A stretch of 64,000 nucleotides of DNA from Atopobium sp. Lineage in GTDB: Bacteria > Actinomycetota > Coriobacteriia > Coriobacteriales > Atopobiaceae. Below, one piece after another: positions 3,303-52,246 of this stretch (position 1 is the first letter of the stretch; each line of letters opens with the position of its first letter). The stretch spans positions 6,434 to 70,433 of the forward strand of contig JABZHP010000001.1 in the NCBI GenBank assembly GCA_015258785.1, read 5' to 3'. The position numbers and the translations under genes were made by a program. The notes under the pieces were generated by a model. It saw only the letters and a program-made list of their open reading frames with translations, was not told where the DNA came from and searched no databases.

Positions 3303-4193
3303 TTATGCTTCATCTTTGAGATGAGCCGCCATCAGTTGGATTGCTTCTCTGTAGCTGTCAATTCCTTTACCAGCAACTGTAGCAAAGCATGCGTCTTTTA
3401 TATAAGAAATGTGCCTAAAGTCTTCTCTGGTAGAGATGTCAGTAAGATGTACCTCAATCATGGGAATTTGCACCGCTAGTGCCGCGTCGAGCAGGGCAAC
3501 TGAGGTGTGCGTATAGGCGGCAGGATTGATAACAATGCCATCGTAGCTGCCCAAGGCGTCCTGGATTGCATCAACTAGATCACCCTCATGGTTTGATTGA
3601 TAGCACACACAGTCAGAGAAACCTTGAGAGAGGGCTTCTTCCTTACAAGTCTCTATAAGGGTTCTGTAGTCAGCTTTTCCATAAACCTCTGGCTCACGAA
3701 TGCCCAGCATGTTGATGTTTGGGCCGTTGATTATGAGTAGGCGAGGAGCGTCGAGGTCATCCTCATAGTTGTCTTCAAAGTCGTCTGCGTCTAAGTCAGA
3801 GGCAAGACTGTCAAAGTATTCTTCGTCTTGATCAAGGGTATTTTTTTGAGTAAGCAAAGAGATTAGCTCATCCACCTCTTCGTTGTGCTGAGTGGGAAGA
3901 TCTGTTCGCTTCTCATCTAACGAACAAAAAGTCTTTTCTGGCTCACCCAAAATGTGATTAAGGGCATCATTTACTTGACGCACAAGATTAGGGCCAAAGA
4001 CTACCTCAAGTCCGTTGGCGCCTTTTCCTACAATACCAAGAACACCAGTGGCTGTGGCCAGCTGTTCATGGTCTATAAGCGTCATATCATTGATGGAAAG
4101 GCGAAGTCGCGTCATGCACACTTCGTTGTGAGTTAAGTTTTTTGAGCCGCCTATTGCATTTAGGATCTCGTGAGCAATAGCATTGCCGTCCAT
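3303..4193 (-). CDS. aroQ: Fusion protein: N-terminal PTS EIIB(Glc)-type domain, acidic linker, then type II 3-dehydroquinate dehydratase
   Basis: N-terminal GGSKNLTHNEVCMTRLRL...VVFG matches the EIIB domain, including the phospho-Cys context CxTRLR. C-terminal NGPNINMLGIREPEVYG...QSNHEG...INPAAYTHTS...HLTDISTREDFR matches type II DHQase. Likely start is the ATG at 4193 after GGGGAG; alternative starts at 4229 and 4220. Confidence 0.8.
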   Translation of the reverse strand: MDGNAIAHEILNAIGGSKNLTHNEVCMTRLRLSINDMTLIDHEQLATATGVLGIVGKGANGLEVVFGPNLVRQVNDALNHILGEPEKTFCSLDEKRTDLPTQHNEEVDELISLLTQKNTLDQDEEYFDSLASDLDADDFEDNYEDDLDAPRLLIINGPNINMLGIREPEVYGKADYRTLIETCKEEALSQGFSDCVCYQSNHEGDLVDAIQDALGSYDGIVINPAAYTHTSVALLDAALAVQIPMIEVHLTDISTREDFRHISYIKDACFATVAGKGIDSYREAIQLMAAHLKDEA

Positions 4194-4379
4194 TGGATAT
4201 CTCCCCAAGTATGACCACATATCAAACACTTAACCGTTTGACTTGGTCTAACATCCTTGTAGTCTTATGAATACACACCTACGAAGCATAAGTATAGGGG
4301 CTTTAACGTGCCAAAATTCAAAATCTACAAACCATCCGGTGAACGGTTAAAAAATAACTGCGAACGCTTACTGTTATGT

Positions 4380-5684
4380 TTAAAGTGTGTCGAGAAGACC
4401 CTTGGCATCTGCGTCTGGACTACAGAGACAAGAAAAGGTTACGTCAGCCCATGCTTCATAGAGCGGAATACGTACTGCAGCAAGATTCTGAACACCCATA
4501 CGTTCTGAAAGAGGTCTGCCGGCAATAGCTAGGTCTTCAAGCGGGCGCGTAAGGTAGACAAGCTTGCCGTTTTGACGGAGGAGCTGGTAGTTTGAAGGTG
4601 TAACAACTACGCCACCTCCACAAGAAATCACTGAGCCACTCATGCTAGAAATCTCTTGAATTACTTCATGTTCTAGATGCCTAAAAGCCGCTTCACCGTG
4701 TGTTTGTAGGTAGGTTGACGCTTTGCAGTGAGCTTTCTGCTTGATGAGAAAATCAGTGTCTATCCAGGGACGATTCAGGAGTTTTGCTAGAGCTTCTCCC
4801 GTAGAGGTTTTTCCAACTCCCGGCATACCAATAAGCACGATGTTTTCTTTTGAAGCATGGAGCTCACGCGAGATACTTTCTATCTGAGAGTCTGATACAT
4901 CCTGTCTCAAAAAGAGCGAGCTTGCTCTAGCTGCTTGAGCCACCAGCATTTTTAAACCATTTGCATTGAGTATTCCAAGACTTTCTGCGTCTAAAAGAAG
5001 CTGAGAGCGCAGCGGATTGTAGATAAGATCAATCACGCATTGTAGGGAAGTAAAAGCAGCGAGGCCATCTTTTGAAAGAGGAGAAACACCAGCATGTGGG
5101 AACATTCCTACTGGCGTTGCATTGACAAGAAGATCAGCGTCATAGTGGGATTGAAACTGGTCATACGTAATTGCGCAGTCTATATATGAAGAACTTTCGT
5201 GAGGGTTCCTGGAGACTCCCACAACATATGCACCGCCTTTTTTGAGTGCACAGCAAATTGCCCTGCCAGCGCCACCAAAGGCTCCTAAAACAACCACTAT
5301 CTTTTTGTTCAAGTTGACCTTGAGGCTTTTTACCAGATACTCAAAGCCATACACATCGGTGTTGTCTGCTGCTATAAAACCATTAGCATCTTTTACCAGG
5401 GTATTTGCCGCTCCCACAGCTTGCGCATCCTCAGAAACTGAGTCCGCAAGAGCGTAGGCATCCTTTTTGTAGGGGATAGTAACGTTCAAGCCCTGCCAAG
5501 GTTGGTCTTTGAGAAAACCTTTCAGCTCAGAAGCAGAAAGCTCATGAAGCTGGTAGGGAAATGACCCTAGCTTTTCATGAATTTCTGCTGACCAGCTATG
5601 AGAGAGTTTCTCGCCAATAAGCCCAAAAGGAGCAAGAGGAGCTGTAGGGTTACCTGAGGCTTGCTGTACGGTTTTAGAACTCAC
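4380..5684 (-). CDS. aroE-aroK: Bifunctional shikimate dehydrogenase (N-terminal) / shikimate kinase (C-terminal)
   Basis: N-terminal half resembles AroE (NVTIPYK, NTDVYGF). C-terminal half has the shikimate-kinase Walker A GMPGVGKTS. 434 aa. Confidence 0.85.
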   Translation of the reverse strand: MSSKTVQQASGNPTAPLAPFGLIGEKLSHSWSAEIHEKLGSFPYQLHELSASELKGFLKDQPWQGLNVTIPYKKDAYALADSVSEDAQAVGAANTLVKDANGFIAADNTDVYGFEYLVKSLKVNLNKKIVVVLGAFGGAGRAICCALKKGGAYVVGVSRNPHESSSYIDCAITYDQFQSHYDADLLVNATPVGMFPHAGVSPLSKDGLAAFTSLQCVIDLIYNPLRSQLLLDAESLGILNANGLKMLVAQAARASSLFLRQDVSDSQIESISRELHASKENIVLIGMPGVGKTSTGEALAKLLNRPWIDTDFLIKQKAHCKASTYLQTHGEAAFRHLEHEVIQEISSMSGSVISCGGGVVVTPSNYQLLRQNGKLVYLTRPLEDLAIAGRPLSERMGVQNLAAVRIPLYEAWADVTFSCLCSPDADAKGLLDTL

Positions 5685-5946
5685 GAGATGTCTCCTGAAC
5701 TGCCTTTGCAGCGTTCATCAAAACCTCAAGCAACTCTAAAGCATACGGTTCAAGTTCATTAGAAACAGTTGCTTTAACCTGTTCTCTTTTGGCATCTTCT
5801 CTTGAGAAATCAAGAACGGCGAGCTCATGCTCTTTTTTGTAAGCACCAATTTGTTTGGCAACCGTAATCCTTTGCTCAAAGAGGCCAAAGATTTGCGCAT
5901 CAATTGAATCGATTTCCTGGCGAAGCGTCTCTAATTGATTAGTCAT
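5674..5946 (-). CDS. Chorismate mutase (AroQ class, small helical type)
   Basis: 90-aa helical protein with a LRxEIDxID motif. Overlaps neighbours by 8-11 nt, so it is probably translationally coupled. Confidence 0.65.
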   Translation of the reverse strand: MTNQLETLRQEIDSIDAQIFGLFEQRITVAKQIGAYKKEHELAVLDFSREDAKREQVKATVSNELEPYALELLEVLMNAAKAVQETSREF

Positions 5947-7081
5947 TGTTATATCCGTTCTGCTCAGAGGGCCAGGAATATAAGGTGTCGAGAAGGGCTA
6001 GCGCAAAAGCACTTTCAACACAGGGAACAGCGCGCAAAACTGCAGTTACATCATGCCTGCCTCGAACAATAAGCTGCTCTGGTTCCATAGTTTGAAGGTT
6101 TACTGAGTTCTGTGGTAGACCAATGCTCGAGATAGGTTTTAATGCACATCTAAACCAGATGGGAGCGCCTGTTGAAATACCGCCCAGAATACCTCCAGCA
6201 TGATTGGTAGTTGGCATAACGAAGCCGTTACGCACTTCGTAAGCATCGTTATTTTCAGAGCCAAGGAGATTAGCAACTTCCATTCCGCTACCAAATTCTA
6301 TGGCTTTAACAGCGGGAACACCAAAGACTGCAGCAGAGATGGTATTTTCTAGTCCGTGGAAATGAGGGCATCCAATACCTGCAGGAACGCCCGTTGCTGC
6401 ACACTCGATTATGCCGCCAACGGTATTTTTCTCTGAGCGCAGCTGTGTAAGGAGTGCGCGGGTTTTCTCGCCAGCTTGAACATCGAGGAAGGGAAGCTCT
6501 TGAGGAGCAGTTTGGAGCAGCTGATCCATTTGGTAAGCAAGTAGCTTGTTGGCCTCAAGTGAGTTGTCTACGAGCTCAAGGGGAGTATCGCTGACGTCCT
6601 TTATTTTGAGAACGTGAGCGGCAATAGTTATGCCTTGAGCTTGCAAAATCTGGAGCGCTATGCCTCCTGCAATGCAGAGAGGAGCAGTGAGGCGAGCAGA
6701 AAAATGTCCTCCACCCGTTTGCTTGTACGAGTCTCCCCATTTTGCCCAGGCAGCAAAATCGGCATGTCCTGGTCGTGGGACAAGCTTTGTAGCTGCGTAA
6801 TCTTGTGGACGAACGCTTGTGTTAGGTAGCTCCGCCGTGAGCGGGGAGCCATCTAGAATGCCTTCTGCTGAAATTCCAGAGATAAACTCTGGATCATCAG
6901 TCTCTTTACGCGGGGTATCCCATGGATGCGATGGTGACCTTCTTTGAAGAAATGCTTTGAGAGCGGCTAGATCAACGGCAAAACCAGCAGGTAAACCTTC
7001 AATGGTGCAGCCGATTTTTGGAGCATGAGACTCGCCAAAAATAGATACTTTTACTGTTGTCCCAAAAGTTGAGGTCATCAT
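5939..7081 (-). CDS. aroC: Chorismate synthase
   Basis: GESHAPKIG-type N-terminus and full-length (380 aa) similarity to AroC. Confidence 0.9.
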   Translation of the reverse strand: MMTSTFGTTVKVSIFGESHAPKIGCTIEGLPAGFAVDLAALKAFLQRRSPSHPWDTPRKETDDPEFISGISAEGILDGSPLTAELPNTSVRPQDYAATKLVPRPGHADFAAWAKWGDSYKQTGGGHFSARLTAPLCIAGGIALQILQAQGITIAAHVLKIKDVSDTPLELVDNSLEANKLLAYQMDQLLQTAPQELPFLDVQAGEKTRALLTQLRSEKNTVGGIIECAATGVPAGIGCPHFHGLENTISAAVFGVPAVKAIEFGSGMEVANLLGSENNDAYEVRNGFVMPTTNHAGGILGGISTGAPIWFRCALKPISSIGLPQNSVNLQTMEPEQLIVRGRHDVTAVLRAVPCVESAFALALLDTLYSWPSEQNGYNND

Positions 7082-8362
7082 TTATGACTCCATACTGTGG
7101 CAGATGCCACCGAGCTGCTTAAAGTGCTCAAAGAAGAGCGGATACGACTTATTGATTGCCTCGGCATGGGTGATTATGACAGGACCCGTTGCATACGAAG
7201 CCAAAATAGTTGCCATCATCACCATGCGATGATCATTGCACGAGTCCACAATGCAGCTGACGGGCTGTTTTCCTCCCGTGACAATAAGCTCCGTTTGATC
7301 GTCAGAGAGCTCAACGCTCACACCAAATGCCCTAAGTACGCTGCAGATACTTTGAACGCGGTCGGACTCTTTAAGACGAAGGCGCTGAATATTGGTAAGC
7401 CTACTTGTTCCAGGGATAAACGCAGCTAATGCAGCAAGTACCGGAGCAAGATCGCACACCTCGGAGACAGAAATGGTAAACGGCCGCAGGTGATCCATCA
7501 TACAAGCTGCGCCCTTTTGCTGGCGAGAAACACGTGCGCCCACAAGCGATAACGCGGCCAAGATAGCTCTATCTCCCTGAACACTTTGCATTGAGAGCCC
7601 TGTGACCTCTACGCCTTGCCCAATTGCTCCTGCGGTAAGCCATGGCGCAGCGTTTGACCAATCTCCTTCGATTGAATAAACGCCTGGACAAACGTAGTGT
7701 TGAGGCTCAATGGTATAGGTAGCATTCTTTGCATCAAATTCAGTGGTGATGCCAAAGTCTTTCAATACGTGCTCTGTGATAGCCAGGTAGTCTTTTGAAT
7801 GGGTGGGCCCTGTAATTTGTAGTGTTGAAGATTCGTTCAACAAAGGTAATGCCAGCAAAAGTCCAGAAATAAATTGGGATGAGATATCTCCTGGTAGCTC
7901 AAATAAACCGCCAATAAGTTTGCCCGAAACTTCAAGGATCTTCTCGTCTTGCCAGCTAAAAGACATACCATGGGCAGAGAGTTCTGAGACAAGCGGCTCT
8001 AGAGGTCGAGAGAAGAGTCTTCCTTCTGCAGAAATTGTGGCGTTTACGTTTAGCACGCCCAGAAGGGGGAGTAAAAACCTGAGCGTTGTGCCAGATTCTT
8101 TGCAGTTAAGTTGCACACTTTGAGGGCGATTTTGCTCTTTTGCAGGGACAACTCTAAATCCCTGTTTAGTTCTAGCGATAGTGGTGCCTAAAGCTTTAAG
8201 ACAATCAACAGTCACTTGAATGTCCTCTGAGATGTACGGACAGGTAATGTTGGTAGTTCCGTCAGCAAATGAAGCGCAGATGAGCGCGCGATGAGCGCAT
8301 GATTTTGACGGGATGGCTACTACCGTTCCAAACAAATCATGAGGTGTTATTGAAACATCCAT
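7082..8362 (-). CDS. aroA: 3-phosphoshikimate 1-carboxyvinyltransferase (EPSP synthase)
   Basis: 426-aa ORF with EPSP synthase fold motifs. Directly abuts aroC. Confidence 0.9.
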   Translation of the reverse strand: MDVSITPHDLFGTVVAIPSKSCAHRALICASFADGTTNITCPYISEDIQVTVDCLKALGTTIARTKQGFRVVPAKEQNRPQSVQLNCKESGTTLRFLLPLLGVLNVNATISAEGRLFSRPLEPLVSELSAHGMSFSWQDEKILEVSGKLIGGLFELPGDISSQFISGLLLALPLLNESSTLQITGPTHSKDYLAITEHVLKDFGITTEFDAKNATYTIEPQHYVCPGVYSIEGDWSNAAPWLTAGAIGQGVEVTGLSMQSVQGDRAILAALSLVGARVSRQQKGAACMMDHLRPFTISVSEVCDLAPVLAALAAFIPGTSRLTNIQRLRLKESDRVQSICSVLRAFGVSVELSDDQTELIVTGGKQPVSCIVDSCNDHRMVMMATILASYATGPVIITHAEAINKSYPLFFEHFKQLGGICHSMES

Positions 8363-8464: not shown

Positions 8465-9091
8465 GTGAATAAGCCTTTTAGCGCCGTAACTCAGGTTTTA
8501 CGTGGCTATACGTACAATCAGGTTAAAGCTGTCGTTGAGGTTCTTATTGATTCTCCTGTACATAACGTTGAAGTAACCATGAACACTCCAGAAGCTGCTT
8601 CGTTAATTCAGAAGCTGTCCAGTGAATATGGTTCTGATATCAATATTGGTGCCGGTACCGTGCTTACTCTTGAAGATCTGCGGACGGCTCATAAAGCTGG
8701 TGCTACGTTTGTTTTAGCACCAACGCTGCTCTCTGAAGAGATGTTTGACTACTGCAAAGAGCATGAGATTTTGAGTGTTCCAGGAGCGTTTTCGCCAACA
8801 GAGATTGCTCATGCATTTGCTCTTGGTGCAGATATTGTCAAAGTATTCCCCGCAAATGAGGTTAGTTATGGATACGCCAAAAAGGTATGTGAGCCTTTAG
8901 GAAACTTGCCTCTTATGGCAGTTGGTGGCGTTGCAACAGACAATATTGCTGACGTATTTGCAGGTGGATATGCTTATGTAGGAACTGCTAACGGCATCTT
9001 CAACAAAAACGATATCCTAGCTGAAGATAAAACCGCTCTAAAACAGTCAGTACGTAAGCTTGCGGAAGAGTTGGAGCGTCTAGGACGTTAG
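8465..9091 (+). CDS. eda: KDPG/KHG aldolase family protein (Eda)
   Basis: GAGTVL...GATFVLAP...GAFSPTEI...GADIVKVFPA motifs of the Eda family. GTG start after an AAAGGAGGAAG RBS. Its 3' end overlaps aroB convergently by 4 nt. Confidence 0.7.
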   Translation: MNKPFSAVTQVLRGYTYNQVKAVVEVLIDSPVHNVEVTMNTPEAASLIQKLSSEYGSDINIGAGTVLTLEDLRTAHKAGATFVLAPTLLSEEMFDYCKEHEILSVPGAFSPTEIAHAFALGADIVKVFPANEVSYGYAKKVCEPLGNLPLMAVGGVATDNIADVFAGGYAYVGTANGIFNKNDILAEDKTALKQSVRKLAEELERLGR

Positions 9092-10167
9092 TCTTCTATT
9101 GCTAGCTCAATCAGCTGTTTAAGTTCTGCAAATGACTTGCGCTCAATACGTACATCACCAATGCCATAGATAAGCGCCATATCAATTGAATCTGCGTGGC
9201 TTTTCTTGTCATGAAGTGCTGCGCTGTAAAGTTCTTCCACAGTAAATGAAGTGCTGGTAGGAAGGTTATAAGCTTGTGTGAGCGTGGCGATGTTCTTAGC
9301 GTCTTCAACAGAGCAAAGACCAAGCTTGGAACAGGCTTTTGCCAACATGGAAGTTCCAGCAGCCACACAGGAGCCGTGTCCAAGTTCAAAGTTGCCGAGC
9401 GTCTCAATAGCATGGCCAAGTGTATGGCCCAGATTGAGCAATTTTCTAGACCCTGCTTCTTTGAAGTCTGCGTCAACGATTGACTTCTTTATTTCGATAC
9501 ATGCTTGAATGAGCTCTTGTCTATGCGGTACGTCGATGACCTGCACAGGGTTTCTCGCCAAAGAGATTTTATTGAAAAGCTCATGTCCAGAAAGAACGCC
9601 GTATTTAATAAGCTCTCCGCAGCTATCTTGCAAGAGGGGAGTCGGAATAGAGTTCAGCAGTTCAAGGTCAACAATAACGGCCTTGGGATTATAGAAGGCT
9701 CCAACCAGATTTTTCCCAAACGGTAGGTCAATAGCAGTTTTTCCACCAATTGAGGAGTCAATCATCGCTAAAAGAGAGGTGGGGATGTGTACGAGCGCAC
9801 AACCTCGCATGTAGGTTGCTGCAACAAATCCCGCAAGATCGCCAATGACGCCTCCGCCAAACGAGACGACAATGTCTTCTCGCGTAAAACGATTTTCTGC
9901 AAGGACGTTTACCAGCTTTTGATACGACTCAAATGATTTTGCGTGCTCACCTGTGGGTACTGCAGCAGTTGTGACAGAAAAGCCAGCTGACTCTAATGAG
10001 GCGAGAAGTTCTGTGCCAAAGAGCTTGTTCAAATTTGGATGAGTGACCACAAGAATCTTTGAACCCGAGGTGCAGGAATGAATAAGGTTGCCGGCCTGCG
10101 CAAGCAGGTGATGCCCTACATGAATTTGATATGAGTCGGATGTTAGGTCAACAGAAGTAGTATTCAT
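9088..10167 (-). CDS. aroB: 3-dehydroquinate synthase
   Basis: 359 aa with the Gly-rich NAD site GGGVIGDLAGF and metal-binding His residues typical of AroB. Confidence 0.9.
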   Translation of the reverse strand: MNTTSVDLTSDSYQIHVGHHLLAQAGNLIHSCTSGSKILVVTHPNLNKLFGTELLASLESAGFSVTTAAVPTGEHAKSFESYQKLVNVLAENRFTREDIVVSFGGGVIGDLAGFVAATYMRGCALVHIPTSLLAMIDSSIGGKTAIDLPFGKNLVGAFYNPKAVIVDLELLNSIPTPLLQDSCGELIKYGVLSGHELFNKISLARNPVQVIDVPHRQELIQACIEIKKSIVDADFKEAGSRKLLNLGHTLGHAIETLGNFELGHGSCVAAGTSMLAKACSKLGLCSVEDAKNIATLTQAYNLPTSTSFTVEELYSAALHDKKSHADSIDMALIYGIGDVRIERKSFAELKQLIELAIED

Positions 10168-41420: not shown

Positions 41421-41634
41421 ATGGAGAATTTCACAATTTGCAATCATAAGTTTGTAAATAATTCTGTGAACGGTCGATATTGACCGCTCACCGTTATTTT
41501 GTTCAGATGAATCGCGTAGGTTGGTAACATACTATGAATGTGAGGACAGAACTAACTTTGTTTGGTTTGATGTCTTTGCGTTCAATTGTGTTGGTGCACG
41601 CTTTGCGTGTGACAGTTTGAGAGTTTGGAGTGTT

Positions 41635-44397
41635 ATGTCCGAGAAGCACGTTTACAGCTTCGGAAAGGACCACGCCGGTAACGATGTTACTGAGGTCGCT
41701 GGCGCATCCGTAGAAGAGGCAAAGTGGATTGTTGGTGGCAAGGGAGCAAACCTTGCAGAGATGTCTAAGATTGGTCTGCCTGTACCTCCAGGATTCTCAA
41801 TTACTTGCCAAACTTGCGTTGCTTATTCCAACAACGGCAACGTCTGGCCTGAGGGCGTCACTGATGAGATTGACGCAGCTATGGCTACCCTTGAGGAGCG
41901 CATGGGCAAGAAGCTCGGCGATGCAGAAGATCCACTGCTTGTCTCCGTCCGTTCTGGTGCACCATTCTCCATGCCTGGCATGATGGACACTGTTCTTAAC
42001 CTTGGTCTTAACGATGAGTCCGTTCAGGGCCTCATTAAGCAGACTGGTAACGAGCGCTTTGCTTGGGACTCTTACCGTCGTTTTGTTCAGATGTTCTCTG
42101 GCGTTGTTATGGGCGTCTCTGGACAGCTCTTTGAGGATGCAATTGCTGCTAAGAAGGCCGAGAAGGGCGTTAAGCTTGATACAGAGCTGGACGCAAATGA
42201 CCTTCGTGACCTTGTAACTTGGTTCAAGGGCATCTTTGCTGCAAACGTTGACGTTAAGGAGCACCCAGAGGTCTCCAAGAACGGCTACGCTGTCTTTCCA
42301 TCTGATCCTTACCTCCAGCTCCGCCTTGCTGAGCAGGCAGTCTTTGGTTCTTGGATGAATGACCGCGCAATCCTTTACCGCAAGCAGAACAAGATTCCTG
42401 ATGAGCTTGGTACTGCAGTTAACGTTCAGGTCATGGTCTTTGGTAACAAGGGTGAGACTTCTGCAACTGGCGTTGCATTTACTCGTAACCCTGCAGATGG
42501 TACTAACGAGCGCTACGGCGACTTCCTGATCAACGCTCAGGGCGAGGACGTTGTTGCTGGTATTCGTAATACTGAGCCTATTGCAGACCTCGTTAAGGTT
42601 CCTGCACTCAAGGAGGCAGGCGAGGAGCTCTTCCACGTCTTTGAGATTCTTGAGGATCACTACGCAGACATGATGGACATCGAGTTCACCATTGAGAATG
42701 GTAAGCTCTGGATGCTTCAGACTCGTGTTGGTAAGCGTACTGCTCTCTCTGCACTTAAGGTTGCAATTCAGATGTACGAAGAGGGTCGTATTACTAAGGA
42801 GCAGGCTGTTTCTCGCGTTGCTCCTGAGCAGCTCGATCAGCTTCTGCACCCACAGTTTGATCCTAACGCTGAGTATGAGACCATTGCTAAGGGTCTTAAC
42901 GCTTCTCCTGGTGCAGCTGTTGGTGCTGCAGTCTTCTCTTCTGCAGACGCTGAGGCTTTTGCAGAGGCAGGCAAGCCTTGTATTCTTGTTCGCTGGGAGA
43001 CCACTCCAGATGACCTCCACGGCATGGTTGCTGCAGAGGGCATCCTAACTTCCCACGGTGGCAAGACCAGCCACGCTGCTGTTATTGCTCGTGGTATGGG
43101 CGCTCCTTGCGTCTGCGGTGTTGATACACTCCGTATTGATGCTGCTAACAAGCGCTTCACCGTTGCTGATTCCGGCCTTGTTGTTAACGAGGGCGATGTT
43201 ATCTCCATCGACGGCACCACTGGTGACGTCATCCTTGGTGCTGTTGAGCTTGTTCAGCCAGAGCTTTCTGGTGACCTTCAGACCATCCTTGCATGGGCAG
43301 ACGAGGTCCGTCTTGACGAGTCCCGTGGTCGCGTCATTGGTGTTCGTGCAAACGCTGATAACCCAGCAGACGCTCAGACTTCCGTTGATAACGGCGCTGA
43401 GGCAATCGGTCTTGACCGTACTGAGCACATGTTCCTTGGTGAGCGTAAGCACCTCATTCAGGACTTCATCCTTGCAGACTCTGAGGACGTTAAGCAGCTT
43501 GCTATTGAGCAGCTTGGTCGTGCTCAGAAGGGTGACTTCCTTGGTATGTTCAAGGTAATGGACGGTAAAGACGTTGTTGTCCGTCTTCTTGACCCACCAC
43601 TGCACGAGTTCCTTGATTCCCCACGTGAGCTTGACGTTGAGATTGCTCGCGATGAGGAGCAGGGTAAGGACACCGCTGCAAAGCGTGCTCTTCTCGCTAA
43701 GTTTGACGCCTTCCAGGAGGCAAACCCAATGCTCGGCCTCCGTGGCTGCCGCCTTGGCCTTGTCTATCCAGAGCTCAACGTTATGCAGGTCCGCGCTATC
43801 GCAAGCGCAGCTGCAGAGCTCAAGCGCGTTGGTCTTGACCCTCGTCCAGAGATCATGGTTCCTCTGGTTGGCTTCGAAGAGGAGCTTATCCAGGTCCGTG
43901 AAGAGGTTGAGGAGACCATCAAGCAGGTTGCTGATGAGTACGGTGTTGAGCTCAACATCCCAGTTGGTACCATGATCGAGCTTCCACGTGCAGCTATCAT
44001 GTCTGAGGAGATTGCTAAGCACGCAGACTTCTTCTCCTTTGGTACTAACGACCTCACCCAGACATGCCTTGGCTTCTCTCGTGATGACGTTGAGTCCGCA
44101 TTCATGCCTCTCTACCTTGAGCGCAAGATTGTTAAGACCAACCCATTTGCAACCCTTGATAAGGGCGTTGCAGAGCTTGTCCGCATGGGTGTTGAGGGTG
44201 GCCGTAAGGGTAATCCTAACCTCACCATTGGTGTCTGCGGTGAGACTGGTGGCGATCCAGAGTCCATCCACATGTACTACAACCTTGGTCTTGACTATGT
44301 CTCCTGCTCACCATACCGCGTGCCAATCGCACGTCTTGCTGCAGCACAGGCAAAGATTCAGGCTAACGGTGGTCCACAGAAGATTGCTACTAAGTAG
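41635..44397 (+). CDS. ppdK: Pyruvate, phosphate dikinase
   Basis: PEP-utilising enzyme motifs including GGKTSHAAVIARG (catalytic His and regulatory Thr) and the C-terminal TIM barrel. ATG at 41635 after a GGAG RBS; the track's longer ORF lacks an RBS. Confidence 0.95.
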   Translation: MSEKHVYSFGKDHAGNDVTEVAGASVEEAKWIVGGKGANLAEMSKIGLPVPPGFSITCQTCVAYSNNGNVWPEGVTDEIDAAMATLEERMGKKLGDAEDPLLVSVRSGAPFSMPGMMDTVLNLGLNDESVQGLIKQTGNERFAWDSYRRFVQMFSGVVMGVSGQLFEDAIAAKKAEKGVKLDTELDANDLRDLVTWFKGIFAANVDVKEHPEVSKNGYAVFPSDPYLQLRLAEQAVFGSWMNDRAILYRKQNKIPDELGTAVNVQVMVFGNKGETSATGVAFTRNPADGTNERYGDFLINAQGEDVVAGIRNTEPIADLVKVPALKEAGEELFHVFEILEDHYADMMDIEFTIENGKLWMLQTRVGKRTALSALKVAIQMYEEGRITKEQAVSRVAPEQLDQLLHPQFDPNAEYETIAKGLNASPGAAVGAAVFSSADAEAFAEAGKPCILVRWETTPDDLHGMVAAEGILTSHGGKTSHAAVIARGMGAPCVCGVDTLRIDAANKRFTVADSGLVVNEGDVISIDGTTGDVILGAVELVQPELSGDLQTILAWADEVRLDESRGRVIGVRANADNPADAQTSVDNGAEAIGLDRTEHMFLGERKHLIQDFILADSEDVKQLAIEQLGRAQKGDFLGMFKVMDGKDVVVRLLDPPLHEFLDSPRELDVEIARDEEQGKDTAAKRALLAKFDAFQEANPMLGLRGCRLGLVYPELNVMQVRAIASAAAELKRVGLDPRPEIMVPLVGFEEELIQVREEVEETIKQVADEYGVELNIPVGTMIELPRAAIMSEEIAKHADFFSFGTNDLTQTCLGFSRDDVESAFMPLYLERKIVKTNPFATLDKGVAELVRMGVEGGRKGNPNLTIGVCGETGGDPESIHMYYNLGLDYVSCSPYRVPIARLAAAQAKIQANGGPQKIATK

Positions 44398-49992: not shown

Positions 49993-51327
49993 ATGACGCA
50001 AAAAGTTACTGTAGTAGGCGCTGGTTTAGCTGGAAGTGAATGTGCCTTACAGCTTGCTTCTCGTGGTATTTCTGTAGAGCTCATTGAGCAGCGCCCTGTT
50101 GTTTCTTCTCCAGCACACCACACAGATATGTTTGCTGAACTGGTATGTTCCAACTCTTTGAAATCTACTAAAGAAGACTCTGCAGCTGGAATTTTAAAGT
50201 CTGAGCTTAAGAAGATGGGCAGTTTTCTGCTTCGTATAGCAGAAGAAAACTCTGTTCCTGCAGGTGGTGCACTGGCGGTAAATAGGGAAGAGTTTTCAAA
50301 AGCAGTAACTGAGCAGATTAAAAATCATCCCAACATCTCTGTGACTCATGCAGAGGTTACAGAGTTAACTGAAGAGCCAACAGTTATTGCTGCAGGACCT
50401 CTGTGCTCAGATAGCTTGTACGAAGCAATTTCTAAGCGTGTTGGAACTAACAGAATGTCGTTTTTTGATGCAGCAGCGCCTATTGTGTCTTATGAATCAA
50501 TTGACCATTCAATTGCATTTTCTCAATCTCGTTATGAGGACTTGGGAATTGGCGATTACCTCAATTGCCCCATGAGTAAAGAGGAATATGACACATTTGT
50601 AGATGAGCTGCTTGCAGCTAAACGTGTTATTGGCCACGATTTTGAGCAGTCTGATTTGTTCCAAGCTTGTCAGCCTATTGAGGAAGTAGCAAGAACAGGA
50701 CATGATTCCATTAGATTTGGCGCTTTGAAGCCAGTAGGACTTATTGATCCCAGAACGGGTAAACGCCCCTGGGCAGCAGTTCAGCTTCGTGCAGAAAATG
50801 CAGCTAAGACAGCATTTAATCTGGTTGGTTTTCAGACAAATCTTACCTGGGGAGAGCAAAAACGCGTATTTACCCTCATCCCAGGGTTGGAAGACGCTGA
50901 GTTTGTTCGCTACGGCGTCATGCACAGAAACTCTTTTGTTGACTCTCCTCATGCGCTTGACGGCTCGTTTGGAATTCCGGGAACTTCTACTATTCTTGCA
51001 GGTCAAATTACGGGTACAGAAGGCTATGTTGAGGCTATAGCATCTGGTTTGCTTGCTGCACTAAACATGTATGCTCGTCTGTTGGGCAAAGAGGAAGTCA
51101 GGCTTCCTTTGACCACTTCGTTTGGCTCTCTTGTGGGTTATGCAACAAACCAAAACACCAAAGATTATCAGCCCATGCATGTTAACTTTGGAATTTTTGA
51201 GCCACTGGATGAGCACGTCAAAAGAAAAGACGAGCGCCGTCAAAAGATGGCAGAGCGCGCTCATAAAGACTTTGATGACTACATCTCTTCTCGTCAGGAA
51301 CTTTTTGATTGCACGAAGTGTGATTAA
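49993..51327 (+). CDS. trmFO: Methylenetetrahydrofolate--tRNA-(uracil54-C5)-methyltransferase TrmFO
   Basis: FAD-binding N-terminus VTVVGAGLAGSE and TrmFO/Gid-family length. Confidence 0.9.
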   Translation: MTQKVTVVGAGLAGSECALQLASRGISVELIEQRPVVSSPAHHTDMFAELVCSNSLKSTKEDSAAGILKSELKKMGSFLLRIAEENSVPAGGALAVNREEFSKAVTEQIKNHPNISVTHAEVTELTEEPTVIAAGPLCSDSLYEAISKRVGTNRMSFFDAAAPIVSYESIDHSIAFSQSRYEDLGIGDYLNCPMSKEEYDTFVDELLAAKRVIGHDFEQSDLFQACQPIEEVARTGHDSIRFGALKPVGLIDPRTGKRPWAAVQLRAENAAKTAFNLVGFQTNLTWGEQKRVFTLIPGLEDAEFVRYGVMHRNSFVDSPHALDGSFGIPGTSTILAGQITGTEGYVEAIASGLLAALNMYARLLGKEEVRLPLTTSFGSLVGYATNQNTKDYQPMHVNFGIFEPLDEHVKRKDERRQKMAERAHKDFDDYISSRQELFDCTKCD

Positions 51328-51328
51328 T

Positions 51329-52246
51329 GTGGCTATTTCAAAAGAGCAGGGTAGTCACGTTGAACAATTTATTGAGTATCTAAGTAAGGTCAGGAATCTC
51401 TCCGAGAATACCCTAAGGTCATATCAGACTGATCTTTTGGCATTTGAGCAGTGGTGCAGTAGGGAAGGTGTTGCGGTAACTCGGGTTGATCACAGAAGCC
51501 TTCGTCTCTATTTGGCCTATCTCAAACAGGCTCAATATTCAGCAAAAACACTAAATAGGCATTTATCTGCGTTGCGTGGTTTTTACAAATGGATGCAGCG
51601 AGAAAAACTGATTGCTACAGATCCTGCTCTTGCGCTCAGCAATCCTCGAGCACCACGAAATCTTCCACATACCATGGCTGATTCTGATGTAAATAGGCTT
51701 TTAGAATCATGTGATGTTTCAACCGCGGTAGGGCTTAGAGATAGAGCTTTTCTTGAGTTTTTGTATGCAACAGGAGCTCGTATTTCTGAGGTAGCATCAC
51801 TTACGCTTGATCAGGTTGATTTGCAAAATGGAACAGTGCGTCTCTTTGGTAAAGGCTCTAAAGAGCGAATTGTTCCTCTCTATGAGTCAGCTATCGAGTG
51901 GCTTAAAAAGTACCTAAGTTCTTCTCGACCTACGCTTTTGTTGAAAGATAAAGCGGGCCGTGCACATTCGGCTCTTTTTATTTCCGTAAGAGGAAATAAC
52001 ATGAGCGCGGATTCTTTGCGCAAGGTTTTCTCGTCGTATTTAGTGGCTGCAGGACTAGACAGCTCACTTTCTCCACATGCAATGAGGCATACGTACGCCA
52101 CGGAGCTTCTTGGCGGTGGAGCAGACTTGCGTATTGTCCAGGAACTTTTAGGCCATGAGTCGCTCTCAACTACACAGGTGTATACGCATTTGTCAGTTGA
52201 CAGGCTCAAAGAAGCAGCAAAAGCAGCTCATCCAAGATCAAAATAA
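51329..52246 (+). CDS. xerC: Tyrosine recombinase XerC/XerD (chromosome dimer resolution)
   Basis: R...HxxR...Y catalytic motifs (HAMRHTYATELL, LGHESLSTTQVYTH). GTG start immediately after the trmFO stop. Confidence 0.85.
   Translation: MAISKEQGSHVEQFIEYLSKVRNLSENTLRSYQTDLLAFEQWCSREGVAVTRVDHRSLRLYLAYLKQAQYSAKTLNRHLSALRGFYKWMQREKLIATDPALALSNPRAPRNLPHTMADSDVNRLLESCDVSTAVGLRDRAFLEFLYATGARISEVASLTLDQVDLQNGTVRLFGKGSKERIVPLYESAIEWLKKYLSSSRPTLLLKDKAGRAHSALFISVRGNNMSADSLRKVFSSYLVAAGLDSSLSPHAMRHTYATELLGGGADLRIVQELLGHESLSTTQVYTHLSVDRLKEAAKAAHPRSK

What the first reader, a model, noticed from the sequence alone, without database searches (positions are those of the whole stretch)
3303..4193. PTS EIIB(Glc)-type domain, with its phospho-Cys motif intact, fused to type II 3-dehydroquinate dehydratase at the end of the shikimate operon
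The N-terminal 80 aa (GGSKNLTHNEVCMTRLRLS...VVFGPN) is a clear glucose-family EIIB domain with the conserved CxTRLR phospho-cysteine context.

A roughly 60-aa highly acidic linker joins it to a complete type II DHQase with all catalytic-region motifs: REPEVYG, SNHEG, YTHTS, HLTDISTREDFR.

No EIIC or EIIA gene is nearby, so the EIIB module is more likely a regulatory or phospho-acceptor domain than part of a transporter.

PEP is the phosphoryl donor of the PTS and a substrate of DAHP and EPSP synthases. A PTS-phosphorylatable dehydroquinase could therefore couple aromatic biosynthesis to PEP or sugar status. I am not aware of this fusion being characterised.
Basis: partly seen in the sequence, partly recalled or inferred. 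Interest (0 to 1): 0.55.

Follow-up and report, generated by a model that had tools for sequence, protein, structure and literature searches.

The report
PTS EIIB domain fused to dehydroquinase
The last gene of this bacterium's aromatic amino-acid operon encodes a normal dehydroquinase carrying an extra, intact sugar-phosphotransferase (PTS EIIB) phospho-acceptor domain; relatives that lost the enzyme's active site still keep the EIIB site, which suggests an uncharacterised signalling link between sugar/PEP status and aromatic biosynthesis.

Summary
Window 3303-4193 (minus strand) encodes a 296-aa protein with three parts:
- a PTS_EIIB domain (Pfam 42.4 bits, cut-off 27; Cys26 in C-M-T-R-L-R);
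- a 69-aa disordered linker with net charge -19;
- a type II dehydroquinase with 10 of 10 catalytic residues.

It is the last gene of the aro operon of a Lancefieldella-like bacterium (family Atopobiaceae). None of the 47 window ORFs scanned is a PTS gene.

The fusion is conserved across Atopobiaceae: about 30 GTDB species and 28 of the top 149 clusters at 50% identity. It is always the last gene of the aro operon. The sister group Collinsella has the same operon with a plain aroQ.

The EIIB domain is under strong purifying selection (dN/dS 0.065, against 0.039 for the enzyme domain and 0.20 for the linker).

A new result: one deep clade has lost 4-8 of the 10 dehydroquinase catalytic residues. 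It has 56 clusters at 90% identity, and 54 of them keep the EIIB Cys/Thr/Arg/Arg site. It still sits at the end of an intact aro operon.

The EIIB function is therefore separable from catalysis and at least as constrained. That favours a non-transport, phosphorylation-based signalling role. Phosphorylation, its donor and its effect are untested, and I found no literature on the fusion.

Verdict: new variant of a known kind; interest about 0.6.

The parts
3303..4193 (-). Coding sequence of the EIIB-linker-AroQ fusion protein (296 aa plus stop codon at 3303-3305)
   Evidence: ORF list; Pfam PF00367 plus PF01220; homologs of 292-296 aa
3942..4193 (-). PTS EIIB (glucose/sucrose-family) domain, aa 1-84
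   Evidence: Pfam 42.4 bits against cut-off 27. PDB sequence match to E. coli IIB(Glc), E=2e-7. AF2 pLDDT about 87 with alpha-beta-beta-alpha-beta-beta-alpha order. dN/dS 0.065.
4116..4118 (-). Codon of Cys26, the predicted phospho-acceptor cysteine (C-M-T-R-L-R)
   Evidence: Aligns with Cys421 of E. coli IIB(Glc). Invariant in alignments A1 and A2. Present in 105 of the 107 clusters classified (51 DHQ-intact plus 54 of 56 degenerate).
3744..3941 (-). Acidic, disordered linker, about aa 85-150 (counted as aa 83-151: net charge -19)
   Evidence: Composition. AF2 pLDDT below 50 for 85-103 and 116-146. dN/dS 0.20, rising to about 1 in Olsenella pairs.
3852..3875 (-). Conserved linker motif V-D-E-L-I-S-L-L (aa 107-114), inside a weakly predicted helix (aa 103-120)
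   Evidence: S112 is nearly invariant and L114 invariant in A2. The strict motif occurs in 17 of 32 species. Looser acidic D/E-x-L-x-x-L-L forms are visible in most of the other linkers I read. Helix pLDDT is about 52.
3306..3743 (-). Type II 3-dehydroquinate dehydratase domain, aa 151-296, with all catalytic residues
   Evidence: Pfam 175.9 bits. NCBIfam aroQ subfamilies pass their cut-offs. Foldseek TM 0.95 and rmsd 1.0 A to 8idr. N156 R166 Y171 N223 H229 D236 E247 H249 R256 R260 are all present.
4200..4206 (-). Shine-Dalgarno-like GGGGAGA, 6 nt upstream of the ATG
   Evidence: Read from the sequence; conserved in the L003-L008 alignment
4285..4348 (-). Conserved hairpin (4330-4348, terminator-like) followed by a promoter-like site and a conserved TATACT, in the 186-bp gap after aroE/aroK. 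This is possibly the fusion gene's own transcription signals.
   Evidence: Consensus scan, not above the shuffle expectation. Conservation with paired changes in the hairpin. No Rfam family matched.
4380..5684 (-). aroE-aroK fusion (shikimate dehydrogenase plus shikimate kinase), immediately upstream gene
   Evidence: Pfam Shikimate_dh_N plus SKI; NCBIfam
5674..8362 (-). Chorismate mutase (5674-5946), chorismate synthase (5939-7081) and EPSP synthase (7082-8362): the rest of the operon
   Evidence: Pfam
9088..10167 (-). aroB (3-dehydroquinate synthase), which produces the DHQase substrate
   Evidence: Pfam DHQ_synthase plus DHQS_C

Best explanation
The gene encodes the aro operon's type II dehydroquinase (AroQ). 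In the ancestor of Atopobiaceae it acquired an N-terminal PTS EIIB domain of the MurP/ScrA/BglF N-terminal type, on a flexible acidic tether.

The enzyme half is a normal, catalytically complete DHQase. This is shown by residues and fold.

The EIIB half is not part of a sugar transporter. It is a conserved phospho-acceptor or phosphotransfer module. I infer that it is phosphorylated on Cys26 by an EIIA(Glc)-class protein of the PEP -> EI -> HPr -> EIIA relay. Its phosphorylation state would then report PTS sugar flux and the PEP/pyruvate ratio.

I further infer that the signal is read out through phosphorylation-dependent protein-protein contacts. These would involve the EIIB surface (the C-M-T-R-L-R and E-V-V-F-G-P motifs) and the short conserved linker motifs. 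The (presumably oligomeric) DHQase fold would serve as a scaffold, so that aromatic amino-acid biosynthesis is tuned to carbon and PEP supply.

The comparative data show that this EIIB-dependent function is separable from DHQase catalysis. The regulated target therefore need not be the DHQase active site itself.

Shown here: the architecture, its conservation, the selection pattern, the operon linkage, and the separability from catalysis. Inferred: phosphorylation, its donor, its direction and its effect.
For: Architecture and active sites.

Purifying selection on EIIB: dN/dS 0.065, against 0.039 (DHQ) and 0.20 (linker), over 21 Lancefieldella pairs. The motifs C-M-T-R-L-R, G-V-L-G and V-V-F-G-P are invariant over 62 sequences down to about 48% identity.

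Distribution:
- 28 of the top 149 representatives at 50% identity carry the fusion, always with EIIB N-terminal.
- About 30 GTDB species carry it, nearly all labelled Atopobiaceae or Coriobacteriales. L030 is also fused.

Operon linkage: the fusion is always the last aro-operon gene. Collinsella and other Coriobacteriaceae have the same operon ending in a plain aroQ.

Separability from catalysis:
- A monophyletic clade has lost 4-8 of the 10 DHQase catalytic residues, and 54 of its 56 clusters keep C/T/R/R.
- In that clade EIIB is more conserved than the DHQ-like domain (0.60 against 0.47 pairwise identity). The canonical set shows 0.45 against 0.65.
- dN/dS for the one unsaturated pair is 0.06 (EIIB) and 0.12 (DHQ-like).
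- Members of the clade remain in intact aro operons.

No EIIC, EIIA, EI or HPr gene lies in the 64-kb window or within about 10 kb in any locus.

An Olsenella isolate encodes and expresses a fructose PTS, so a phosphorelay exists in the family (PMC9748033).

Precedent for EIIB fused to a metabolic enzyme: NCBIfam NF011497, triosephosphate isomerase/EIIB.
Against: - No experiment or computation here shows phosphorylation.
- EI, HPr and an EIIA(Glc)-class donor were not demonstrated in Lancefieldella genomes. The tools could not scan whole genomes.
- AlphaFold2 monomer models of two family members show no confident contact between EIIB, the linker motifs and the DHQase domain (pTM 0.52 and 0.51; linker pLDDT below 50).
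- DHQase is an unusual control point for the pathway; DAHP synthase is the usual one (textbook knowledge).
- One representative (P0140) has Cys->His and degraded motifs with an intact DHQase. The EIIB site is therefore dispensable in at least one lineage.
- In the pseudo-enzyme clade the source of DHQase activity is unknown, so the state of the pathway there is uncertain.
Confidence: 0.5

Rival explanations
1. Real transport EIIB acting in trans. The domain would be the working IIB of a separately encoded, B-less EIIC permease of the Glc/Scr/Bgl/MurP family. The fusion to AroQ would only provide co-expression or be incidental.
For: The domain has the full catalytic signature, including both arginines (R29, R31 = Arg424, Arg426 of E. 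coli IIB(Glc)). From my memory of Lanz & Erni 1998, these are needed for transfer to the sugar. It is closest to the N-terminal IIB of IIBC permeases. It is retained when DHQase catalysis is lost.
Against: No EIIC gene lies in the 64-kb window or within 10 kb in over 30 loci. The gene never leaves the end of the aro operon. The conserved DHQ-like core and linker motifs are still under selection in the pseudo-enzyme clade, which a mere carrier would not explain. Tethering to a probably dodecameric enzyme would be awkward for docking on a membrane EIIC (inference).
Confidence: 0.15
2. Reverse signalling, or a decoy. When the aro operon is expressed, the soluble and probably multivalent EIIB would titrate or buffer EIIA~P. 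It would thereby modulate PTS activity or PTS-dependent regulation, for example to spare PEP for DAHP and EPSP synthases. Information would flow from the aro operon to the PTS.
For: The fusion is co-transcribed with, or adjacent to, aro genes in all species. The function is independent of DHQase catalysis. The oligomer-core motifs of the DHQ fold are retained in the pseudo-enzyme clade. Competition between the PTS and the shikimate pathway for PEP is well known in metabolic engineering (for example PMC2089068, listed).
Against: A phospho-acceptor without an outlet cannot drain phosphoryl groups at steady state. There is no evidence for EIIA binding. The benefit is unclear, since slower sugar uptake also lowers PEP production (inference).
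Confidence: 0.12
3. PEP-dependent phosphoryl donor to a small molecule or enzyme, analogous to DhaM. Cys26~P would pass its phosphoryl group to a pathway intermediate or partner enzyme bound at or near the DHQ-like domain.
For: Both arginines and the F-G-P loop, which serve onward phosphotransfer in EIIB(Glc), are invariant. A precedent exists for PTS domains feeding non-transport kinases (DhaM/DhaL/DhaK; my own knowledge).
Against: The operon already encodes an ATP-dependent shikimate kinase fused to AroE. The ligand-binding residues of the DHQ domain are lost in the pseudo-enzyme clade. No candidate acceptor is known.
Confidence: 0.08
4. Phosphorylation-independent structural or interaction module. 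The EIIB fold would serve as a docking, solubility or assembly domain, and the cysteine would be conserved for other reasons such as redox.
For: P0140 keeps the domain with Cys->His and Arg->Cys. L031 has a degraded E-V-V-F-G-P motif. A fused-family-specific C-x-C motif lies in the DHQ domain.
Against: The whole phosphotransfer signature (C, T, R, R plus the F-G-P loop) is invariant in more than 100 clusters, not only the Cys. In P0140 both motifs decay together, as expected if they work as one phosphotransfer site.
Confidence: 0.1
5. Neutral relic of a gene-fusion accident, with no function.
For: The distribution is confined to one family.
Against: dN/dS is 0.065. The motifs are invariant across family-level divergence. 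The domain is retained when the enzyme half decays.
Confidence: 0.02

Closest known systems
Type II 3-dehydroquinate dehydratase (AroQ; Pfam PF01220, e.g. C. glutamicum 8idr, S. coelicolor 1d0i, M. tuberculosis 2dhq)
   Same: The C-terminal 146 aa share the fold (TM 0.95, rmsd 1.0 A), have all ten catalytic or binding residues, and occupy the same operon position as the plain aroQ of Collinsella.
   Different: The protein carries about 150 extra N-terminal residues (an EIIB domain plus an acidic linker). A sister clade of the same fusion has lost the active site and is a pseudo-enzyme.
EIIB(Glc) domain of PTS permeases (PtsG 3bp3/1o2f; N-terminal IIB of MurP, ScrA, BglF)
   Same: It has the Pfam PTS_EIIB signature, with Cys26/Thr28/Arg29/Arg31 equivalent to Cys421/Thr423/Arg424/Arg426, the F-G loop, and the alpha-beta-beta-alpha-beta-beta-alpha order.
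   Different: It is not linked to any EIIC or EIIA, either covalently or in the gene neighbourhood. It is fused to a soluble biosynthetic enzyme in an amino-acid operon.
EIIB(Glc)-Mlc and EIIB(Mtl)-MtlR sequestration (PTS IIB domains acting as phosphorylation-dependent regulatory partners; PMC13482132 and PMC13421365, listed)
   Same: An EIIB domain is used for signalling rather than only for transport, with its phosphorylation state as the signal.
   Different: In those systems the IIB is part of a membrane permease and its partner is a transcription factor. Here the IIB is on a soluble enzyme scaffold and its partner is unknown.
Triosephosphate isomerase/PTS EIIB fusion (NCBIfam NF011497, PRK14905)
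   Same: A central-metabolism enzyme is fused to a Glc/Scr-type EIIB domain. The window protein matches that model's EIIB part weakly.
   Different: The enzyme differs, the domain order is opposite (EIIB is C-terminal there), and the taxa differ. To my knowledge that fusion is also functionally uncharacterised.
PTS domains recruited into non-PTS proteins (PRD regulators with EIIB(Gat)/EIIA(Mtl)-like domains; DhaM of dihydroxyacetone kinase; HPr-phosphorylated glycerol kinase). Cited from my own knowledge (Deutscher et al. reviews).
   Same: The general logic is shared: PEP-derived phosphoryl groups control or feed a non-transport protein.
   Different: Those cases use different PTS domain superfamilies and different targets. 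None involves the shikimate pathway or an EIIB(Glc)-family domain on a biosynthetic enzyme.

Membership tests
PTS EIIB, glucose/sucrose family (PF00367) | Profile match above the curated threshold | tested here: met
   42.4 bits against a gathering score of 27. NCBIfam IIBC models align over aa 3-115. PDB IIB(Glc) match, E=2e-7.
PTS EIIB, glucose/sucrose family (PF00367) | Active-site Cys followed by x-T-R-x-R, with both arginines | tested here: met
   C26-M-T-R-L-R aligns with E. coli C421-I-T-R-L-R and is invariant in A2.
PTS EIIB, glucose/sucrose family (PF00367) | Split alpha/beta fold with a four-stranded antiparallel sheet and three helices | tested here: inconclusive
   AF2 gives H-E-E-H-E-E-H with pLDDT about 87, consistent with the fold. 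No structural superposition of the isolated domain was possible, because Foldseek hits were dominated by the DHQase half.
PTS EIIB, glucose/sucrose family (PF00367) | Phosphorylation of the Cys by a cognate EIIA~P | not testable with these tools
   This needs biochemistry. Even the presence of an EIIA(Glc) gene in the genome could not be checked.
PTS Enzyme II sugar permease complex | EIIB covalently or genomically associated with an EIIC (and EIIA) of the same family | tested here: not met
   No PTS Pfam family was found among 47 window ORFs. There were no HPr, Crr, EI or extra EIIB tblastn hits in the window or 82 loci. No PTS families appear in the annotated neighbourhoods.
Type II 3-dehydroquinate dehydratase (AroQ) | Profile match | tested here: met
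   PF01220 scores 175.9 bits. NF003806, NF003807 and NF003805 score above their cut-offs. The TIGR01088 equivalog scores 165.1, just under its 169.85 cut-off.
Type II 3-dehydroquinate dehydratase (AroQ) | Catalytic and binding residues Asn12, Arg19, Tyr24, Asn75, His81, Asp88, Glu99, His101, Arg108, Arg112 (M. tuberculosis numbering; the mapping rests on my own knowledge of the family) | tested here: met
   N156 R166 Y171 N223 H229 D236 E247 H249 R256 R260 are all present.
Type II 3-dehydroquinate dehydratase (AroQ) | Flavodoxin-like fold superposable on solved enzymes | tested here: met
   Foldseek: TM (target) 0.95, rmsd 1.0 A, 46% identity to 8idr; 136 PDB hits with E<=1e-3.
Type II 3-dehydroquinate dehydratase (AroQ) | Dodecameric (tetramer of trimers) assembly and measured DHQase activity | not testable with these tools
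   Only monomer models were available. The N-terminal extension is assumed, not shown, to be compatible with the dodecamer.
Type II 3-dehydroquinate dehydratase (AroQ) | Shikimate-pathway gene context | tested here: met
   It is the last gene after aroE/aroK in the window and in all related loci.
PTS-regulated non-PTS enzyme (functional class) | Activity or interaction changes with PTS-dependent phosphorylation | not testable with these tools
   Only indirect support exists: selection on the phospho-site, and its retention without catalysis.

The most novel reading that the evidence does not exclude
EIIB-AroQ would define a previously unrecognised class of PTS output device. An oligomeric (probably dodecameric) dehydroquinase scaffold would display many phosphorylatable EIIB(Glc) domains on acidic tethers carrying short docking motifs. 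It would transmit the PTS phosphorylation state (sugar influx, PEP/pyruvate) to aromatic amino-acid biosynthesis through phosphorylation-dependent binding of a partner, either an enzyme or a regulator. In one deep clade the scaffold has become a pure pseudo-enzyme regulator.
Probability: 0.3. Interest if true: 0.75.

Novelty: new variant of a known kind. Interest (0 to 1): 0.6.

Why it matters
The PTS is the main carbon-status sensor of many bacteria. Its known outputs are transporters, transcription regulators, adenylate cyclase, glycerol kinase and a few others. None of these is in amino-acid biosynthesis.

The shikimate pathway uses two PEP per chorismate and competes with the PTS for PEP. 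That trade-off is exploited in metabolic engineering, but no natural regulatory link is known.

This fusion is family-wide and selectively maintained. Its EIIB site outlives the enzyme's own active site in one clade. It therefore offers a concrete, testable candidate for such a link in common human oral and gut and ruminant Actinomycetota (Lancefieldella, Olsenella and relatives).

It also supplies a natural enzyme-to-pseudo-enzyme series for study.

It also flags an annotation gap: hundreds of database entries named 'type II 3-dehydroquinate dehydratase' carry an unmentioned EIIB domain, and many of them are probably not dehydratases at all.

Tried and rejected
1. Upstream GTG start at 4229. 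Rejected because homolog lengths and the conserved Shine-Dalgarno site support the ATG at 4193.

2. EI-like tblastn hit in the window (42979-44325). It is pyruvate phosphate dikinase, not EI.

3. Riboswitch, T-box or RAT-like element upstream of the gene. No Rfam match at E<=1. The promoter and terminator consensus hits are not above the shuffle expectation, although the hairpin and a TATACT are conserved.

4. Intramolecular docking of EIIB or the linker motifs on the DHQase. AF2 of the window protein and of P0077 gave pTM of about 0.5 and linker pLDDT below 50, so there is no support.

5. Single origin of the fusion from a DHQ-domain NJ tree. The tree is unresolved, with long branches and Collinsella and Clostridia nested among the fused sequences. 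Taxonomy and synteny, not the tree, support a single origin.

6. Apparent loss of EIIB in Olsenella intestinalis (L030). This was an artefact of tblastn reporting only the best segment; the ORF is fused.

7. Representatives with two matched stretches (P0143, P0149, P0230). They are tandem DHQase-DHQase proteins, not reversed fusions.

8. Replacement DHQase next to the pseudo-enzyme copies. I found no DHquinase_I, no second DHquinase_II and no E. coli AroD-like tblastn hit within about 10 kb.

9. Direct evidence for EI, HPr or EIIA in Lancefieldella. The tools could not provide it. Literature searches gave only an Olsenella fructose PTS.

10. Prior description of the fusion in the literature. 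None found.
Full report
**1. What is in the window**

The ORF listing shows one long ORF on the minus strand, 3303-4229 from a GTG or 3303-4193 from an ATG. The ATG is the real start. Close and distant homologs are 292-296 aa and begin at the equivalent Met. A GGGGAGA Shine-Dalgarno-like site 6 nt upstream is conserved in seven related genomes, while the sequence around the GTG is not.

The 296-aa product has two domains by Pfam:
- PTS_EIIB (PF00367), 42.4 bits against a gathering score of 27, aa 9-41;
- DHquinase_II (PF01220), 175.9 bits, aa 152-288.

NCBIfam confirms the aroQ assignment: three subfamily models score above their cut-offs, and the TIGR01088 equivalog is just below at 165.1 against 169.85. 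The N-terminal domain is closest to the N-terminal IIB of MurP, ScrA and BglF-type IIBC permeases.

Against solved structures, the two halves match type II dehydroquinases and E. coli IIB(Glc) separately. No solved protein has both. In the residue-level alignment, C26, T28, R29 and R31 fall on Cys421, Thr423, Arg424 and Arg426 of IIB(Glc). The E-V-V-F-G-P motif falls on Q-A-I-F-G-T.

The linker (aa 83-151) has 24 acidic and 5 basic residues.

AlphaFold2 with a 62-sequence alignment gives two confident domains: EIIB with pLDDT of about 87 and alpha-beta-beta-alpha-beta-beta-alpha order, and DHQase with pLDDT above 90. The linker between them is disordered. pTM is 0.52, so no inter-domain packing is predicted. 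The DHQase half superposes on C. glutamicum, S. coelicolor and M. tuberculosis enzymes with TM 0.95 and rmsd 1.0 A.

All ten catalytic or binding residues are present: Asn12, Arg19, Tyr24, Asn75, His81, Asp88, Glu99, His101, Arg108 and Arg112 in M. tuberculosis numbering. That mapping rests on my own knowledge of the family.

**2. Surroundings**

The gene is the last of a minus-strand aro cluster:
- aroB, 9088-10167;
- aroA, 7082-8362;
- aroC, 5939-7081;
- a 90-aa chorismate mutase, 5674-5946;
- an aroE-aroK fusion, 4380-5684;
- the EIIB-aroQ gene.

A KDPG/KHG-aldolase-family gene on the other strand (8465-9091) lies between aroB and aroA. A convergent 5-formyl-THF cyclo-ligase gene follows the cluster.

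A 186-bp gap precedes the fusion gene. It contains a conserved hairpin followed by a conserved TATACT and matches no Rfam family. The gene may therefore have its own transcription signals, but this is only suggestive.

I scanned 47 ORFs of the 64-kb window with Pfam. I also ran tblastn with HPr, EIIA(Glc), EI and the EIIB domain. No PTS component is present. The single EI-like hit is pyruvate phosphate dikinase.

**3. Who has it**

The window is 98% identical at this gene to an 'Atopobium sp.' oral MAG and 84-88% identical to Lancefieldella parvula.

In the 1.84-billion-protein representative library, 28 of the top 149 clusters at 50% identity carry both domains, always with EIIB at the N-terminus.

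Among GTDB species representatives, about 30 species have the full-length fusion. They comprise Lancefieldella/Atopobium, Olsenella, Olegusella, Parafannyhessea and Candidatus Coprovicinus, plus Atopobiaceae and Coriobacteriales MAGs and a few MAGs labelled only bacterium or actinobacterium. One contig from an 'Oscillospiraceae' MAG is probably misbinned. Olsenella intestinalis, which looked unfused in the table, is fused.

Collinsella and other Coriobacteriaceae have the same operon, DAHPS-tyrA-aroB-aroA-aroC-CM/PDT-aroE/K. It ends in a plain aroQ at the same position. The fusion is therefore an EIIB-plus-linker module added to the 5' end of the resident aroQ, confined to one family.

A DHQ-domain NJ tree was too poorly resolved to prove a single origin. 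All databases name these proteins only 'type II 3-dehydroquinate dehydratase'. NCBIfam has no model for the fusion. Eight literature searches found no description of it.

**4. Is the EIIB domain functional?**

Across 62 sequences down to about 48% identity, these residues are invariant: N19, N23, C26-M-T-R-L-R31, G50-V-L-G53 and V64-V-F-G-P68.

Nei-Gojobori dN/dS over 21 pairs of Lancefieldella-group genes is 0.065 for EIIB, 0.039 for DHQase and 0.20 for the linker. In Olsenella pairs the linker approaches neutrality while EIIB stays low. A relic is excluded.

The linker is not featureless. An acidic amphipathic V-D/E-x-L-x-S-L-L motif (aa 107-114 here) is conserved. In most genera other than the window's clade, a strand-like h-x-V-x-I-S/T element precedes it. 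AlphaFold2 does not dock either element in two different family members. This is what one expects of motifs that bind in trans or between subunits, but it proves nothing.

**5. The unexpected result: a pseudo-dehydroquinase clade that keeps the EIIB site**

While comparing fused and unfused DHQase domains, I found that two GTDB species (L037, L045) and several representatives lack the Arg19/Tyr24 lid, His81, Glu99/His101 and Arg108/Arg112.

A dedicated search with the L037 protein returned 108 new clusters at 90% identity:
- 56 have at least 4 of the 10 catalytic residues changed. Of these, 54 retain the complete C/T/R/R signature; one is N-terminally truncated and one has C-E-R-R.
- 51 have at most one catalytic residue changed (48 have none), and all of them have C/T/R/R. 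The remaining cluster has two residues changed.

The degenerate proteins form one deep clade. Within it the conservation pattern is inverted:

| Measure | Degenerate clade | Canonical set |
|---|---|---|
| Mean pairwise identity, EIIB | 0.60 | 0.45 |
| Mean pairwise identity, DHQ or DHQ-like domain | 0.47 | 0.65 |
| Positions at least 90% conserved, EIIB | 44% | 35% |
| Positions at least 90% conserved, DHQ or DHQ-like domain | 26% | 59% |

The DHQ-like domain still scores as PF01220 (91 and 74 bits).

For the one pair with unsaturated synonymous sites (L045-L085), dN/dS is 0.06 for EIIB, 0.16 for the linker and 0.12 for the DHQ-like domain. The inactive domain is thus maintained as a fold, but less tightly than EIIB. 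What it keeps is N-G-P-N, L-L-E-L-C-K..A...G-F-x-R-C-D-C-x-Q-S-N-H-E-G-D-L-V-D-x-I-Q-D-A, N-P and G-Y-x-x-A-I.

In four of the five genomic contexts examined, the pseudo-enzyme is still the last gene after aroE/K in an apparently complete aro operon. The fifth contig (L045) starts within aroC, so only its distal part is seen. No type I DHQase, second type II copy or PTS gene lies within about 10 kb.

The reverse situation, a degraded EIIB site with an intact DHQase, was seen in only one representative, P0140. There the Cys, the third Arg and the F-G-P loop have decayed together.

**6. Interpretation**

The window's protein is a working AroQ. This inference from sequence and fold is very strong.

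Its EIIB domain has every feature needed for phosphoryl transfer and is under strong constraint. It is never associated with a permease, and it is evolutionarily tied to the aro operon rather than to DHQase chemistry.

The best-supported reading is a non-transport, phosphorylation-based signalling module. Cys26 would be phosphorylated by an EIIA(Glc)-class protein. Such proteins serve IIB domains of this type in trans in E. coli ScrA and MurP (my own knowledge). The phosphorylation state would report PTS flux and PEP/pyruvate. The readout would be through protein-protein contacts involving the EIIB face and the linker motifs, with the DHQase fold as an oligomeric scaffold.

Because the function survives loss of the active site, DHQase catalysis is probably not the regulated step, or not the only one.

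A functioning PTS exists in the family: an Olsenella isolate encodes four FruA genes plus FruB and expresses them in vivo (PMC9748033). I could not verify EI, HPr and EIIA(Glc) in Lancefieldella itself.

The rivals are listed with their tests:
- a trans-acting transport IIB for an orphan EIIC;
- a decoy or buffer that feeds back on the PTS;
- a DhaM-like phosphoryl donor;
- a phosphorylation-independent module.

A neutral relic is rejected.

**7. Comparison with what is known, and novelty**

The protein is a member of the AroQ family (profile, residues, fold and context all met). It carries a bona fide member of the EIIB(Glc) domain family (profile and active site met; fold consistent). It is not a member of a PTS permease complex, because association with EIIC or EIIA was tested and not met.

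The recruitment of PTS domains as regulatory phospho-acceptors is a known principle. Examples are Mlc-EIIB(Glc), MtlR-EIIB(Mtl), PRD regulators and DhaM. One other enzyme-EIIB fusion is curated in NCBIfam (triosephosphate isomerase/EIIB, NF011497).

What is new is the target pathway (shikimate and aromatic biosynthesis), the architecture, and the natural enzyme-to-pseudo-enzyme series. Hence the rating 'new variant of a known kind'.

**8. Limits**

Everything about phosphorylation and its consequences is inferred. Further limits:
- Oligomer state was not modelled.
- Only about 10 kb on each side of each homolog could be inspected.
- MAG incompleteness limits statements about missing genes.
- The dN/dS for the pseudo-enzyme clade rests on one unsaturated pair.
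- The NJ trees are crude.

Noticed in passing
L037:9616-10470, L045:6348-7235, L083-L085:10001-10894; proteins P0270-P0294, P0314-P0349 etc.: A deep clade of EIIB-'AroQ' proteins has lost 4-8 of the 10 DHQase catalytic residues but keeps the EIIB C/T/R/R site. It still sits at the end of intact aro operons. All are annotated as 'type II 3-dehydroquinate dehydratase', which is probably wrong. Where DHQase activity comes from in these genomes is unknown.
   Followed up: yes
window 8465-9091 (+) and the whole window; L003-L009: The Lancefieldella-group aro cluster lacks DAHP synthase, tyrA and prephenate dehydratase anywhere in the 64-kb window or the flanks; Olsenella, Parafannyhessea and Collinsella have all three in the operon. 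It has a stand-alone 90-aa chorismate mutase instead of CM-PDT. A KDPG/KHG-aldolase-family gene is inserted on the opposite strand between aroB and aroA.
   Followed up: partly
window 4380-5684 (-): Shikimate dehydrogenase and shikimate kinase are fused in one 434-aa protein (AroE-AroK). This fusion is conserved in all the Atopobiaceae and Collinsella loci examined.
   Followed up: partly
window 4285-4348 (-), alignment A4: The 186-bp gap between aroE/K and the fusion gene holds a hairpin conserved with paired substitutions, followed by a conserved TATACT. This may be a terminator plus an own promoter, or an uncharacterised leader. It matches no Rfam family.
   Followed up: partly
window protein aa 195-197 (nt 3603-3611); all fused proteins: A C-x-C motif lies just before Q-S-N-H-E-G. 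C195 is present in 94% of fused but only 10% of unfused DHQase domains, and it is retained in the pseudo-enzyme clade. Its significance is unknown (a redox or contact site?).
   Followed up: partly
P0140 (representative at 50% identity): This is the only fused protein with a degraded EIIB site: Cys->His, the third Arg->Cys, and E-V-V-F-G-P -> D-I-V-F-T-S. Its DHQase site is intact.
   Followed up: partly
P0143, P0149, P0230: These are tandem DHQase-DHQase proteins (two type II domains in one chain) found among the representatives. They are unrelated to the EIIB fusion.
   Followed up: no
L045:3072-5504 and L085:7022-9491: In one sub-lineage of the pseudo-enzyme clade, an S15 X-Pro dipeptidyl-peptidase gene is inserted between aroE/K and the fusion gene. 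L085 also has a TfoX_N gene there.
   Followed up: no
window 41521-44397 (+): A 958-aa pyruvate phosphate dikinase, another PEP-handling enzyme, gave the only EI-like hit in the window.
   Followed up: yes
window 51122-52246 (+): A tyrosine recombinase (Phage_integrase plus SAM-like N-domain) lies between a GidA-family gene and rpsB/tsf. It is probably XerC/D-like rather than a prophage integrase.
   Followed up: no
L017 (CAVDXJ010000075.1): A contig carrying a typical Atopobiaceae fusion is nearly identical in organisation to L016 but is binned in an 'Oscillospiraceae bacterium' MAG. This is probably a binning error.
   Followed up: no
L001, L037, L045, L084, L085 downstream of the fusion: A class I Trp/Tyr-type aminoacyl-tRNA synthetase gene, a YgjP-like metallopeptidase gene and the 5-formyl-THF cyclo-ligase gene recur downstream of the aro operon, in varying order.
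   Followed up: no
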